Position numbers and translations under genes: made by a program. From a virus, in IMG/VR virus record IMGVR_UViG_3300035670_000018, positions 1 to 64,000 of that record: DNA of 64,000 bases. The stretch is one strand, 5' to 3'. The notes under the pieces are model-generated. The model saw only the letters and a list, made by a program, of their open reading frames with translations, did not search any database and was not told the DNA's origin. Shown here piece after piece: positions 1,568 to 4,348 of this stretch. Positions within the stretch are counted from its first letter, which is position 1. Each line of letters starts with the position of its first letter.

Positions 1568-1779
1568 TGTGGCTAGATACATGGATGATTGTTCTACTCA
1601 TTCTTTCTTTTGGTGCGTGTGCCTATGTTAGTGGCCGTAGAGGATTTGCAGCAGGTGGTGAGTTTGCATTACAGTTGCTTGTAGAAAAGAGAATGATCAA
1701 GATTACAGACGAAGGTGAGATCCTTCGTTGGACTCCATATGATGATAAGCCAAAGAGGGCTACAAGAAAGCGAAAGTGA
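1567..1779 (+). CDS. Small hypothetical membrane protein
   Basis: N-terminal hydrophobic segment, basic C-terminus, TAATG coupling to the upstream gene. Confidence 0.65.
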   Translation: MWLDTWMIVLLILSFGACAYVSGRRGFAAGGEFALQLLVEKRMIKITDEGEILRWTPYDDKPKRATRKRK

Positions 1780-1780
1780 A

Positions 1781-2452
1781 ATGAAACGTTATGTGATTGG
1801 TGATGTGCATGGTTGCTATGATGAACTTCATGAATTGATGAATAGAATTCATGATCATGCTAATGGTGAAAAGATCAAAGTGATTTTTGTCGGCGACTAT
1901 GTTGATCGTGGTCCTGATTCAAAGAAGGTTGTTGATTTGATCATGTATCTAACTTCAATGCATGATCATGTTGCACTGATGGGCAATCATGAAGATATGT
2001 TGCTTGACGGCGATTTCACTTATGCTGAGGCTACGCTTCGCAGTTTCAACAGCAAGCTTACCCCACTTATGGAACTGCCTGATTATGTGACTGATTGGAT
2101 GCGAACTCTGCCGAAGTATTATGAAGATGATACAATCATCGTTGCTCATGCTGGTGCAAACCCTGCATGGCCAATGGATCAGCAGACAGATCAAATGCTT
2201 TTGTGGATGCGATATGAAGAATATCATCACGCACAGTTGCCAAAGCATTTCTATCACGGTCATACACCACGATTGGGCAAGATTGAACAAATAGATGATC
2301 GCACAAACGTTGATACTGCTTGTGTATATGGCGGGCATTTGACTGCTGCGATTGTAGGAGATGATGGCAAGCCTGAAGGTTTCATTCAGGTGCCACAAAA
2401 GGGTGGTGTATATGATATGAGTGATGCTCAATCGAAAGGTTGGGAAGTCTAG
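1781..2452 (+). CDS. Calcineurin-like metallophosphoesterase (PPP Ser/Thr phosphatase family, lambda NinI/PrpA-like)
   Basis: GDVHG, GDYVDRG, GNHE, HAG, HGHTP, NVDTACVYGG motifs. Confidence 0.92.
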   Translation: MKRYVIGDVHGCYDELHELMNRIHDHANGEKIKVIFVGDYVDRGPDSKKVVDLIMYLTSMHDHVALMGNHEDMLLDGDFTYAEATLRSFNSKLTPLMELPDYVTDWMRTLPKYYEDDTIIVAHAGANPAWPMDQQTDQMLLWMRYEEYHHAQLPKHFYHGHTPRLGKIEQIDDRTNVDTACVYGGHLTAAIVGDDGKPEGFIQVPQKGGVYDMSDAQSKGWEV

Positions 2453-2466
2453 TATCATATATACTA

Positions 2467-2815
2467 TGTTATCGGTGAAGGAAAACGAAAAACGAACTGG
2501 ACTGGGGTTCAAATCCCCACACCTCCACCAAAGACACTAGCAAGTGGCCATTGAGTGTTATGGGTAACACTCTTGAATAAAAAACCCAAGTCAAGCCGAG
2601 GGCGTAATGCGGCGACATATAAAAAAGGCTAGTGTCTCTGATGGGGGTGTTACTGGGAATCGACAGGCGTGGAATAGTGGACTGGAGATAACCGTAGGCG
2701 ACTACGTACAAGCGCAAAACTCTAAATGCAAATGATAACAACATTGCATCTAAGGCTTACGCTCTAGCAGCGTAATACCTGTGGGTATGGCTCCACCTAG
2801 AAACAGAACGGGCCA
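2467..2815 (+). ncRNA. ssrA: Circularly permuted (two-piece) tmRNA gene; tag peptide ANDNNIASKAYALAA
   Basis: Acceptor piece first: T-arm TGGGG-TTCAAAT-CCCCA (2503-2519), CACCTCC-A-CCA ending 2530. Coding piece starts GGGGGTG at 2643 and gives a 7-bp acceptor stem with G3.U70. Tag ORF 2728-2775. Outer ends approximate. Confidence 0.93.
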
Positions 2816-2845
2816 CCTTAACACACATGACACAGGAGAAATATC

Positions 2846-3097
2846 ATGTCAAAGAACCCTTACGAAATCCGTCTAGAACTTCTTCATATTGCGCGAGATT
2901 TTATTATTGAGCAAAATATGAACGAACGCATCCGTCTTGAGAATGATTGGGGCCTTGAAAGAGAAAAGGCTTCCATTGCACTATCTCAAGGACAGGATGT
3001 AACGTTGCCTCCGTTTCCAAGCGTGCCTAATATGGACGCAGAAGCTATCATCAAGCTGGCTGAAAAGCTGAACGGGTTCGTATCCAAGAATGAATAG
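2846..3097 (+). CDS. Hypothetical phage protein (83 aa)
   Basis: Strong RBS CAGGAG; MSKNPYEIRLELL N-terminus resembles a small protein seen in T4-like phages; followed by a terminator. Confidence 0.75.
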   Translation: MSKNPYEIRLELLHIARDFIIEQNMNERIRLENDWGLEREKASIALSQGQDVTLPPFPSVPNMDAEAIIKLAEKLNGFVSKNE

Positions 3098-3103
3098 AAA
3101 ATC

Positions 3104-3133
3104 AGAGGGGAGTATTGAAACTCCCCTCTTTTT
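3104..3133 (+). terminator. Rho-independent terminator
   Basis: AGAGGGGAGT-ATTGAA-ACTCCCCTCT stem-loop followed by a T run. Confidence 0.8.
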
Positions 3134-3146
3134 AAGGAAGATAAAA

Positions 3147-4118
3147 ATGAAATTCTTATCTGTAAGTCTACTATCACTTCTGCTTCTTGGTTGCAATAAT
3201 ATCTCTACAGTGAACATTGCTCAACAGGGTGTTTCTGGAACAGTGTTAATCAACAGCCAAATTGATCTTACCACAGGAGCAACAGGAACAGGATTCTTCA
3301 TTGGTGATAATCAAATTCTTACGAATCATCATGTCGTATCAGGAAGAAGTGATATCTACATCTATTCAAGCAATAGCAACAGAAAGTATGCTGCAAAGAT
3401 AAAGCATACAGATCCTGTTTCTGATATTGCCATTTTAGAATTGATTGATTGGGAAGTATTCAAAAGAAACGAACTTCCTAAGAATATGGAATTTGATAAC
3501 AGTGACTCGGTTGGCGTTGGCAGTAAAGTTGTAGTTATTGGTCATCCTTCAGGTCTTGTCTGGAGTGTATCTGAAGGTATCATTTCTGGCGAAAATCGCA
3601 GAATTGGAATGAATCCTAAGTTCATGAATCAGGTAGATGCTAATCTTTTCCAAGGCAACTCTGGCGGTCCTGTATTTGGATCAAACGGAAAAGTTGTATG
3701 TGTAAGCACTATGATGCTGACAATTGAAGGCGGTTCTTATGGTTTTTGTATTCCTTCAAATCTTGTAAAGAAGGTTCTAAACGATTTTGAACTTTTTGGT
3801 AAAGTACGTTGGAGAGTGTTAAACATAACAGCAGGATTGACAGATGACGGATCTTCTGTTATAGTACAATCATTAGAGCCTGATGGTGCGGCATACAAAG
3901 CAGGAATTAAAGAGGGTGATAAGATACTGGAAATATACACACCAAAAAATCATCCTGGTGGTATCACGGTAAAAAACATGGACACTTTAGTTACTGAACT
4001 TGCTCTACTGAACGGCGATGATATTGATGTTAAGCTAATGATTGATAGGAATGGTAGCAAGATGCTGATTGATGTTACAACAAACTATAAACTCTCTTCT
4101 GATTATACGGCGGATTAA
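3147..4118 (+). CDS. HtrA/DegP-like trypsin serine protease with one PDZ domain, predicted lipoprotein
   Basis: GTGFF, TNHHV (His), SDIA (Asp), GNSGGP (Ser); PDZ-like GAAYKAGIKEGDKI; signal peptide MKFLSVSLLSLLLLGC with lipobox. Confidence 0.9.
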   Translation: MKFLSVSLLSLLLLGCNNISTVNIAQQGVSGTVLINSQIDLTTGATGTGFFIGDNQILTNHHVVSGRSDIYIYSSNSNRKYAAKIKHTDPVSDIAILELIDWEVFKRNELPKNMEFDNSDSVGVGSKVVVIGHPSGLVWSVSEGIISGENRRIGMNPKFMNQVDANLFQGNSGGPVFGSNGKVVCVSTMMLTIEGGSYGFCIPSNLVKKVLNDFELFGKVRWRVLNITAGLTDDGSSVIVQSLEPDGAAYKAGIKEGDKILEIYTPKNHPGGITVKNMDTLVTELALLNGDDIDVKLMIDRNGSKMLIDVTTNYKLSSDYTAD

Positions 4119-4120
4119 TC

Positions 4121-4348
4121 ATGCCTACAAAAGAAGAGATTACAACGTTCTCTCTGAAGATTGAAACATTAGTCTCAGAGAAGAACATTCCATATATGGA
4201 CGCAATCGTCATGCATTGTGAAAGCACAGGTCTTGAAATTGAACTTGCTGCAAAGCTTATTTCAGGCGCATTAAAATCTAAAATTCAAATTGAAGCTGAA
4301 GAACTTAACTTCTTACCAAAGTCAAACACAACAAAACTACCTTTTTGA
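4121..4348 (+). CDS. 33: Late transcription co-activator gp33
   Basis: FS..IE......YMDAIV..CE..G.E.E.AAKLIS..LKSKI..EAE.LNFL pattern; position near gp59/gp32. Confidence 0.85.
   Translation: MPTKEEITTFSLKIETLVSEKNIPYMDAIVMHCESTGLEIELAAKLISGALKSKIQIEAEELNFLPKSNTTKLPF

What the first reader, a model, noticed from the sequence alone, without database searches (positions are those of the whole stretch)
2467..2815. Phage-encoded circularly permuted (two-piece) tmRNA
Seen: the tRNA-like 3' half (T-arm, CACCTCC-A-CCA ending 2530) lies upstream of the 5' half (GGGGGTG at 2643). They form a 7-bp acceptor stem with the Ala identity pair G3.U70. A tag ORF ANDNNIASKAYALAA* follows (2728-2775). Known: this permuted arrangement and ANDN...ALAA tags are characteristic of alphaproteobacterial ssrA. 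Inference: the host is an alphaproteobacterium, and the phage carries its own ribosome-rescue RNA, perhaps to replace host tmRNA cut by defence nucleases or to sustain late translation. No smpB is in this window, so it would rely on host SmpB or a gene elsewhere. The ORF track misses this gene entirely.
Basis: partly seen in the sequence, partly recalled or inferred. Interest (0 to 1): 0.82.

Follow-up and report, generated by a model that had tools for sequence, protein, structure and literature searches.

The report
Two-piece tmRNA gene in phage
An uncultured T4-like phage carries a real, intact gene for the ribosome-rescue RNA (tmRNA) written in swapped, two-piece order. This kind of phage gene is already published for close relatives, so it is a sound but ordinary new member.

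Summary
Rfam scores 2468-2775 (+) at 100.2 bits for permuted tmRNA (cut-off 47) and 2408-2817 at 56.4 bits for the alphaproteobacterial subtype (cut-off 50). The acceptor stem, G3.U70, T-arm, discriminator A, encoded CCA and the tag frame ANDNNIASKAYALAA* (2728-2775) are all present.

The window is the start of a 167-kb T4-like myovirus with 28 tRNA genes, no SmpB and no integrase. Every related IMG/VR contig with enough DNA has the gene at the same place, between a PD-(D/E)XK nuclease and gp33. On 20 phage sequences, 92.5% of pair cells are paired, 18 of 40 pairs show double changes and G3.U70 is kept in 20 of 20. It is therefore a selected, most likely working gene that must use host SmpB, AlaRS, RNase P and proteases.

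It is not new as a kind. Buchholz et al. 2022 (PMC9004378) described the two-piece ssrA of phage Melnitz directly upstream of gp33 and counted 53 phages with such genes. This scan has also noted phage permuted tmRNAs on many other genomes.

The host inference is unsafe, because phages of OM43 and Stenotrophomonas carry this gene type too. Extras found here: ARAGORN misses this copy, the subtype was not found in cellular genomes, the gene is a recombinant mosaic, and P2 holds a kink-turn-like motif.

The parts
2457..2465 (+). ATATATACT, a -10-like motif just upstream of the first tmRNA base; a possible early or middle promoter element (uncertain)
   Evidence: Present in 9 of the 16 clade sequences aligned, and invariant in the 5. 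Only 2 copies occur in the window, which is not above chance. It is not the T4-type late promoter TATAAATA, which occurs 10 times in the window and never here. The sigma-70 scan found nothing convincing here.
2468..2530 (+). Acceptor piece (63 nt). P2a strand 2468-2473; kink-turn-like bulge plus GA 2474-2478; P2 proximal strand 2492-2499; T-arm 2503-2519 (5 bp, loop TTCAAAT); acceptor 3' strand 2520-2526; discriminator A2527; encoded CCA 2528-2530
   Evidence: Rfam alignment, sequence, pair list, covariation (T-arm 100% paired, acceptor stem 97%).
2531..2642 (+). Intervening segment (112 nt), predicted to be removed when tRNA-processing enzymes make the CCA 3' end and the G1 5' end. Its base stem pairs 2532-2541 with 2628-2637
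   Evidence: MFE -32.3 kcal/mol, z -2.9. Only the base stem (AGACAC / GTGTCT) is conserved among relatives. The interior varies from 28 to 493 nt. No Rfam family matches even at E<=1. No ORF of 40 aa or more lies wholly inside it.
2643..2817 (+). Coding piece (about 175 nt). Acceptor 5' strand 2643-2649 (G3 = G2645); D-loop analogue 2650-2663; P2 proximal strand 2664-2670; GA plus P2a strand 2685-2692; PK1 hairpin 2693-2706 with a possible second stem to GCGC 2712-2715; 3' domain 2776-2817 with the alpha-type motif GAAACAGAA
   Evidence: Rfam alignments, cofold, pair counts. The second stem of PK1 and the 3' pseudoknot are my inference by eye, not tested. The 3' end is set by the end of the RF01849 match.
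2728..2775 (+). Tag reading frame: resume codon GCA, 15 codons giving ANDNNIASKAYALAA, stop TAA. The last codons lie in the P5 hairpin 2759-2773
   Evidence: Read. Relatives keep in-frame tags ending ALAA. P5 shows compensatory changes at synonymous Ala codon positions (helix 8).
2846..3097 (+). orf83: a conserved small protein gene directly downstream, with RBS AGGAGA at 2835-2840. It is a neighbour, not shown to be part of the system
   Evidence: Phage-only family of about 80 clusters. The model has two helices, pLDDT 88, and no fold or family match. A permuted tmRNA lies directly upstream in 45 of 46 loci that have a homologue of 46% identity or more and at least 900 nt of upstream DNA. The link is not kept in distant homologues.

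Best explanation
This is a functional ssrA gene of a lytic T4-like phage, in the circularly permuted (two-piece) form. It is probably transcribed with the surrounding + strand early or middle genes; no terminator separates it from orf83, HtrA and gp33. In the precursor, CACCUCC (2520-2526) pairs with GGGGGUG (2643-2649) and closes off the 112-nt intervening segment. Host RNase P would cut 5' of G2643, and host 3' processing would expose the encoded CCA at 2530. That would leave a 63-nt acceptor piece and a coding piece of about 175 nt, held together by the acceptor stem and helix P2. Host AlaRS would charge it through G3.U70. Host SmpB and EF-Tu would bring it to ribosomes stalled on broken mRNAs. 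Translation would resume at GCA 2728, add ANDNNIASKAYALAA and stop at UAA. The ALAA end would send the product to host proteases. The likely benefit is extra ribosome-rescue capacity, and amino-acid recycling, while the phage shuts off the host and mRNA fragments pile up. What is shown: gene identity, intactness, conservation, selection on structure and tag, and the absence of a phage SmpB. What is inferred: processing, charging, tagging and the benefit to the phage.
For: RF04321 scores 100.2 bits and RF01849 56.4 bits, both full-length. All tRNA-like-domain features are present. On 20 phage homologues, 92.5% of pair cells are paired, against 81.2% in shuffles and 36-55% when partners are slid. 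Eighteen of 40 pairs have double changes, 0 of 500 shuffles reach the observed values, and G3.U70 is kept in 20 of 20. The tags of 32 of 33 distinct clade sequences stay in frame and end ALAA; no tag was parsed for the other one. The locus is conserved: PD-(D/E)XK nuclease, tmRNA, orf83, HtrA, gp33 in the IMG/VR relatives, and nuclease, tmRNA, gp33 in Melnitz and HTVC008M. The phage nature is clear: tail sheath, baseplate, gp32, gp59, gp33, 28 tRNAs, and CheckV completeness of 100%. There is no SmpB and no integrase. A published precedent has the same layout (PMC9004378).
Against: There are no expression, processing or tagging data, and the host is unknown. The middle of P2 does not form the model's helix (non-canonical marks), and the alpha-subtype score is only just above its cut-off. 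No promoter or terminator could be assigned. ARAGORN rejects this copy. Compatibility with the unknown host's SmpB and AlaRS is assumed.
Confidence: 0.88

Rival explanations
1. The RNA acts mainly as a decoy. Its tRNA-like domain would soak up host SmpB or AlaRS and shut down host trans-translation rather than perform it. This has been suggested for the tRNA-like-domain-only RNA of mycobacteriophage DS6A.
For: The phage has no SmpB of its own. A tRNA-like-domain-only RNA was shown to inhibit tmRNA strongly (PMC4131195; PMC11915505).
Against: The full mRNA-like part is kept: resume codon, in-frame tag, stop, the ALAA end and the P5 hairpin, with compensatory changes at synonymous sites. A decoy would not need these.
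Confidence: 0.05
2. It is a passenger: a host ssrA captured by chance, or a remnant of an integration site, that is drifting without function.
For: tmRNA genes are common integration sites, and fragments occur in prophages (PMC9004378). This copy scores lower on the alpha model than its relatives do (56 against 85-114 bits).
Against: The gene is complete, and there is no integrase in the genome. It sits at a fixed locus across a wide clade, with covariation. Two subtype patterns gave 0 hits in 185,579 species genomes, and one of them gave 44 hits in viral contigs, so this is not a recent capture.
Confidence: 0.03
3. It is a working tmRNA whose main value is counter-defence. It would clear ribosomes stalled by host abortive-infection nucleases (mRNA interferases, anticodon nucleases) or replace host tmRNA damaged by them.
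For: The gene travels with a near-complete tRNA set (28 genes) and sits beside a phosphoesterase with weak similarity to polynucleotide kinase-phosphatase. That would fit an RNA-damage theme. The tag plus 3' domain has been swapped between lineages.
Against: Nothing in the sequence links it to any defence system, and no cleavage of tmRNA by a defence nuclease is known to me. The general-capacity reading explains the same facts.
Confidence: 0.15

Closest known systems
Two-piece ssrA of Methylophilales phage Melnitz (MZ577097.1, 45984-46436) and the unannotated copies in Pelagibacter phages HTVC008M and Mosig (Buchholz et al. 2022, PMC9004378)
   Same: All are T4-like myophages with a permuted alpha-type tmRNA at the same locus, downstream of a PD-(D/E)XK nuclease and upstream of the gp33 late-transcription coactivator. 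None has SmpB.
   Different: No glutamine riboswitch is attached here. The tag is different and longer. The neighbours here are orf83 and an HtrA-like protease. Sequence similarity is too low for blastn. ARAGORN finds those three copies but not this one.
Permuted tmRNA of Stenotrophomonas phage DLP6 (KU682439.2, 102838-103059; unannotated in the record)
   Same: DLP6 is the closest isolate by tail sheath (56.6%). It scores 136.8 bits on RF04321 and has the same kink-turn-like layout in P2 by eye.
   Different: Its tmRNA sits at the head of the tRNA gene cluster, not next to gp33. Its tag is ANDDSFAPMAIAA. Its host is a gammaproteobacterium.
Bacterial two-piece tmRNA of Alphaproteobacteria, for example Caulobacter (Keiler, Shapiro and Williams 2000; Rfam RF01849)
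   Same: Shared features are the gene permutation, the tRNA-like domain, the ANDN... tag start, the ...ALAA-type end and the GAAACAGAA-like 3' motif. RF01849 is the best-scoring subtype model.
   Different: This gene is phage-borne and has no linked smpB. It has a canonical tRNA-type T-loop rather than the alpha GGCGGUA type. The middle of P2 is replaced by a conserved non-canonical motif. Two signature patterns of the subtype gave no hit in 185,579 species genomes.
One-piece tmRNAs of mycobacteriophages (Bxz1 group) and Bacillus phage G; tRNA-like-domain-only RNA of phage DS6A (Hudson et al. 2014, PMC4131195)
   Same: All are phage-encoded tmRNA genes without a phage SmpB.
   Different: Those have the standard gene order, or are truncated, and come from other host phyla.

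Membership tests
Permuted (two-piece) tmRNA, Rfam RF04321 | Covariance-model score above the curated cut-off over the full model | tested here: met
   100.2 bits against 47, model positions 1-213, E 2.5e-18.
Permuted (two-piece) tmRNA, Rfam RF04321 | Permuted gene order: T-arm, acceptor 3' strand and CCA lie upstream of the acceptor 5' strand and the tag frame | tested here: met
   CCA ends at 2530 and G1 is at 2643, with a 112-nt intervening segment between them.
Permuted (two-piece) tmRNA, Rfam RF04321 | tRNA-Ala-like domain: 7-bp acceptor stem with G3.U70, 5-bp T-arm with 7-nt loop, discriminator A, CCA | tested here: met
   Pairs are listed. G3.U70 is kept in 20 of 20 homologues.
Permuted (two-piece) tmRNA, Rfam RF04321 | Helix P2 joins the two pieces | tested here: met
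   P2a has 6 bp (2468-2473 with 2687-2692). The proximal part has 3+3 bp. All six proximal pairs covary (helices 1 and 2). The middle part is non-canonical.
Permuted (two-piece) tmRNA, Rfam RF04321 | Pseudoknot PK1 just upstream of the resume codon | tested here: inconclusive
   The hairpin 2693-2706 is 85% paired among homologues (helix 7). The second stem (GCG with CGC) is only 3 bp and never varies, so it is untested.
Permuted (two-piece) tmRNA, Rfam RF04321 | Tag frame starting at an Ala resume codon, ending at a stop, with a hydrophobic proteolysis end | tested here: met
   GCA 2728 to TAA 2775, giving ANDNNIASKAYALAA. The end ALAA is kept in 32 of 33 distinct clade sequences; no tag was parsed for the other one.
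Permuted (two-piece) tmRNA, Rfam RF04321 | Maturation into two RNAs, alanine charging, SmpB binding and tagging activity | not testable with these tools
   This needs RNA ends, biochemistry or mass spectrometry.
Alphaproteobacterial subtype (Rfam RF01849) | Best-scoring subtype model, above its cut-off | tested here: met
   56.4 bits against 50, and it outscores the other clan members. The margin is small. Clade relatives score between 52.6 and 113.6 bits, mostly above 85.
Alphaproteobacterial subtype (Rfam RF01849) | Carried by, or infecting, an alphaproteobacterium | tested here: inconclusive
   The host is unknown. Phages of OM43 and Stenotrophomonas carry permuted tmRNAs too. No bacterial genome matched the subtype patterns.
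Phage-encoded tmRNA | The gene lies in a bona fide phage genome and not in a host flank | tested here: met
   It is a virus record of 167,363 bp with CheckV completeness of 100%. T4-like genes lie on both sides. There is no integrase.
tmRNA-SmpB pair | SmpB gene present in the same genome | tested here: not met
   PF01668 gave no match at E<=1 in six frames of the whole genome. The RNA would have to use host SmpB.

The most novel reading that the evidence does not exclude
This clade's tmRNA may be a phage-evolved subtype rather than a borrowed host gene. It was not found in 185,579 bacterial and archaeal species genomes. It carries a conserved kink-turn-like module in P2: C-stem GUUAUC/GAUAAC, a 3-nt bulge, and tandem G.A/A.G pairs. 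Its tag plus 3' domain is exchanged between lineages as a cassette. It may also work with a phage factor, with the always-adjacent two-helix protein orf83 as the candidate. Under this reading the phage would run a partly private trans-translation system.
Probability: 0.12. Interest if true: 0.6.

Novelty: new member of a known kind. Interest (0 to 1): 0.25.

Why it matters
The gene adds one more verified case to a published pattern: aquatic T4-like phages carry their own two-piece tmRNA next to gp33. The practical points are modest but useful. ARAGORN misses 8 of 20 genes in this group, so published counts of phage two-piece tmRNAs are too low, and the Rfam RF04321 model recovers them. A phage's tmRNA subtype is not a safe host marker. 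All six phages checked here, including this one, lack SmpB, so these RNAs must be compatible with host SmpB. That makes them natural probes of tmRNA-SmpB specificity.

Tried and rejected
- **ARAGORN.** It gave no call on the window or the region at default or lowered thresholds. This is a false negative, not evidence against the gene.
- **blastn against phages.** The tmRNA matched only part of Sinorhizobium phage Phosso. Relatives had to be reached through a neighbouring protein and the covariance model.
- **Source or host lineage.** Two signature patterns scanned in genome contigs gave 0 hits each. The host stays unknown.
- **orf83 as a hidden SmpB-like partner.** It has no Pfam, PHROG, NCBIfam or PDB sequence match. 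The model is two helices with no significant Foldseek hit. It is not an SmpB-like beta-barrel. Distant homologues are mostly not next to a tmRNA, so I rejected it as a demonstrated partner and kept it as a weak lead.
- **HtrA/PDZ protease as the tag-reading protease.** It is kept next to gp33, with 0-2 kb of variable DNA between it and the tmRNA. Melnitz and HTVC008M lack it. Its N-terminus looks exported. Coupling is not supported.
- **A second functional RNA or a riboswitch in the intervening segment.** There is no Rfam match at E<=1, and the interior is not conserved.
- **Late-promoter control.** No TATAAATA precedes the gene.

Full report
**1. Observation**

A T-arm (2503-2519) is followed by CACCTCC (2520-2526), the discriminator A2527 and an encoded CCA (2528-2530). 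After 112 nt comes GGGGGTG (2643-2649), which pairs with it over 7 bp and places G2645 opposite T2524, the G3.U70 alanine identity pair. A frame starting at GCA 2728 reads ANDNNIASKAYALAA and stops at TAA 2773-2775.

Rfam's covariance models settle the identity. RF04321 (tmRNA_permuted) scores 100.2 bits over its whole length (cut-off 47, E 2.5e-18). RF01849 (alpha_tmRNA) scores 56.4 bits (cut-off 50) at 2408-2817. A permissive rescan of 2300-3000 gave nothing else; other clan members scored lower.

ARAGORN reports nothing here, even at relaxed thresholds. It finds only 12 of 20 related genes.

**2. Context**

The window is bases 1-64000 of a 167,363-bp virus record that CheckV rates 100% complete. 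It is a T4-like myovirus, shown by:
- a tail sheath, a baseplate wedge, gp32, gp59 and the gp33 late-transcription coactivator;
- TATAAATA late promoters upstream of structural genes;
- 28 tRNA genes at 100-123 kb.

There is no SmpB and no tyrosine integrase anywhere in the genome.

The nearest isolates by tail sheath are Stenotrophomonas phage DLP6 (56.6%), Pelagibacter phages Mosig and HTVC008M, Ochrobactrum phage OC, and Methylophilales phage Melnitz.

The local gene order, all on the + strand, is:
- cytidylyltransferase-like protein;
- PD-(D/E)XK nuclease (896-1567);
- a 70-aa ORF;
- metallophosphoesterase (1715-2452);
- tmRNA;
- orf83 (2846-3097);
- HtrA-like trypsin-PDZ protease (3090-4118);
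- gp33 (4121-4348);
- two unknown genes;
- gp59;
- gp32.

**3. Relatives and selection**

RF04321 finds permuted tmRNAs in DLP6 (136.8 bits), Melnitz (113.4), Mosig (93.6) and HTVC008M (90.6), but not in Ochrobactrum phage OC. Only the Melnitz record annotates the gene. In Melnitz and HTVC008M it lies between the PD-(D/E)XK nuclease and gp33, as it does here. In DLP6 it heads the tRNA cluster. The Sinorhizobium jumbo phage Phosso also has an unannotated copy (113 bits), with an intervening segment of more than 400 nt.

Using the nuclease as an anchor, I fetched 32 IMG/VR loci of the 76-96% identity group. Of these, 22 carry the tmRNA, and in 21 of them the order is nuclease, tmRNA, orf83, HtrA, gp33. 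L043 is rearranged. The loci without a match are short or end at or soon after the nuclease. The two 46%-identity loci (L045, L046) gave no match at all.

I aligned 20 phage sequences and mapped the window's helices onto the alignment. The results were:
- 92.5% of pair cells are standard pairs, against 81.2% in shuffles and 36-55% when partners are slid by 1-3 columns;
- 18 of 40 pairs carry changes on both sides;
- no shuffle in 500 reaches the observed values;
- the acceptor stem switches between GTG/CAC, GCG/CGC, ATG/CAT and CTG/CAG;
- the G.U pair is kept in all 20 sequences.

The P5 hairpin, which holds the last tag codons, shows compensatory changes at synonymous Ala positions. Among 33 distinct sequences of the narrow subtype, 32 have tags that remain in frame and end ALAA; no tag was parsed for the last one. 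They fall into two groups: ANDNFAPR(M/L)ALAA, and 15-residue forms of the ...KAYALAA type, to which the window belongs. This is the signature of a gene kept for both its tRNA-like and its mRNA-like function.

**4. Mechanism**

The gene has everything that a two-piece tmRNA needs, except the protein partners. All of those (SmpB, AlaRS, EF-Tu, RNase P, 3'-end trimming enzymes, tag-reading proteases) would have to come from the host. The proposed sequence of events is given under the best explanation.

The steps after transcription are inferred from what is established for Caulobacter two-piece tmRNA (Keiler et al. 2000, cited in PMC9004378 and PMC11915505) and for tmRNA in general.

No terminator follows the gene, and the orf83 ribosome-binding site starts 18 nt after the model's end. 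Co-transcription with downstream genes is therefore likely, as reported for Melnitz.

The intervening segment folds into a long stem (z -2.9). Only its base (AGACAC / GTGTCT) is conserved. Its interior ranges from 28 to 493 nt among relatives. I read it as a spacer with a processing stem, not as a second functional RNA.

**5. Comparison with what is known**

Phage tmRNAs have been known since the Bxz1-type mycobacteriophages (PMC4131195). The 2025 tmRNA database lists 79 unique phage sequences (PMC11915505).

Buchholz et al. [quoted passage not shown] They counted 53 phage genomes with two-piece tmRNA by ARAGORN, and found 17 of 47 Melnitz-like contigs with one. They also showed that the Melnitz gene is of alphaproteobacterial type although its host is OM43.

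The present gene is thus a new member of a described group. Our own scan index also holds many notes on phage permuted tmRNAs in other genomes.

The subtype is alpha-like, but Melnitz (OM43) and DLP6 (Stenotrophomonas) break the rule. I did not test it. I put an alphaproteobacterial host at a little over even odds.

**6. What is particular here**

(a) *Restricted subtype.* Two signature patterns gave 0 hits each in 185,579 species genomes: one covers PK1 to the resume codon, the other P2a to the CCA end. The second gave 44 hits in IMG/VR. Exact-pattern scans can miss diverged relatives, so this shows restriction of the signature, not of every homologue.

(b) *Mosaic gene.* Positions 2468-2727 are 98-99% identical to contig L017. 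The tag is only 50% identical to L017. The 3' domain is 98% identical to L035 and L040, which are only 75-82% identical upstream. The tag plus 3' domain has therefore been exchanged by recombination.

(c) *Kink-turn-like motif.* Where the Rfam model expects the middle P2 helix, the clade has a conserved motif with the layout of a kink-turn. The C-stem is 2468-2473 with 2687-2692, and the bulge is 2474-2476. G2477 lies opposite A2686 and A2478 opposite G2685. The motif is present in all 33 distinct clade sequences and, by eye, in DLP6 and HTVC008M. I found no paper that links tmRNA and kink-turns in this sense. The fold itself is untested.

(d) *orf83.* It follows the tmRNA in 45 of 46 loci that have a homologue of 46% identity or more and at least 900 nt of upstream DNA. 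It is a phage-only two-helix protein without a match. Some distant homologues sit next to a beta-type permuted tmRNA or inside tRNA arrays. Most do not, and 10 of 12 of their contigs show no tmRNA. The link may be plain synteny.

**7. Verdict**

The core interpretation is supported. The host and role inferences are open. The gene is a new member of a known kind, and the interest is low to moderate.

Noticed in passing
L025:1772-2206 (same gene in L031; a similar ORF in L021), inside the intervening segment of related phage tmRNA genes: In three related IMG/VR contigs the intervening segment is about 490 nt long. It holds a 144-aa ORF with an HNH endonuclease motif (Pfam PF01844, 23.1 bits against a cut-off of 21.4). 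A homing-type nuclease gene therefore sits in the stretch that tmRNA maturation discards. The window's own segment has no such ORF. Earlier reports of this scan describe the same layout on other DNA.
   Followed up: partly
window 2468-2478 with 2685-2692: There is a kink-turn-like motif in helix P2 of the tmRNA: a 6-bp C-stem, a 3-nt bulge, then G.A and A.G. It is conserved in all 33 distinct sequences of the subtype, and by eye in DLP6 and HTVC008M. It is absent from the Rfam consensus of bacterial permuted tmRNAs. The fold is not tested.
   Followed up: partly
window 2679-2689; genome 115029 and 118848 (outside the window): The string GTAACTGGAG(AT) occurs in the P2 3' strand of relatives' tmRNAs (the window has GGACTGGAGAT). 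It also occurs in the genome's two unusual tRNA-Arg genes, and nowhere else in the genome. This could be a shared D-loop-like or protein-binding element, or a coincidence.
   Followed up: partly
window 2846-3097: orf83 is a phage-only, two-helix protein with an invariant RLENDW core (within NERIRLENDW). It always lies directly downstream of the tmRNA in the close clade. Distant homologues in four near-identical loci (L149, L151-L153) sit directly upstream of a beta-type permuted tmRNA (RF01850, 125 bits). In L146 and L166 they sit inside tRNA arrays.
   Followed up: partly
window 3090-4118: This is an HtrA/DegP-like protease: Trypsin_2 plus one PDZ domain, with an N-terminal hydrophobic stretch ending LLGC that looks like a lipoprotein signal. 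It is conserved directly upstream of gp33 in the uncultured clade but absent from Melnitz and HTVC008M.
   Followed up: partly
L041:5900-5989: A skipping-rope RNA (Rfam RF02924, 53.6 bits against a cut-off of 36.7) lies immediately upstream of the tmRNA gene in one related contig.
   Followed up: no
genome 163424-163630 (L047:1426-1632), outside the window: A 68-aa ORF has weak similarity to the RF-1/GGQ domain (PF00472, 20 bits, below the cut-off), with GGL in place of GGQ. It could be a remnant or a variant of a peptidyl-tRNA hydrolase-type rescue factor.
   Followed up: no
L002:2450-3095 (Sinorhizobium phage Phosso PV764938.1); KU682439.2 102838-103059 (DLP6); KC465899.1 145161-145370 (HTVC008M): Permuted tmRNA genes score 90-137 bits on RF04321 but are not annotated in these public phage records. 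Phosso's intervening segment is over 400 nt long.
   Followed up: partly
window 1715-2452: The gene directly upstream of the tmRNA is a metallophosphoesterase. It has sub-threshold similarity to ApaH and to the phosphatase part of bacterial polynucleotide kinase-phosphatase (Pnkp). It is present in only part of the clade.
   Followed up: no
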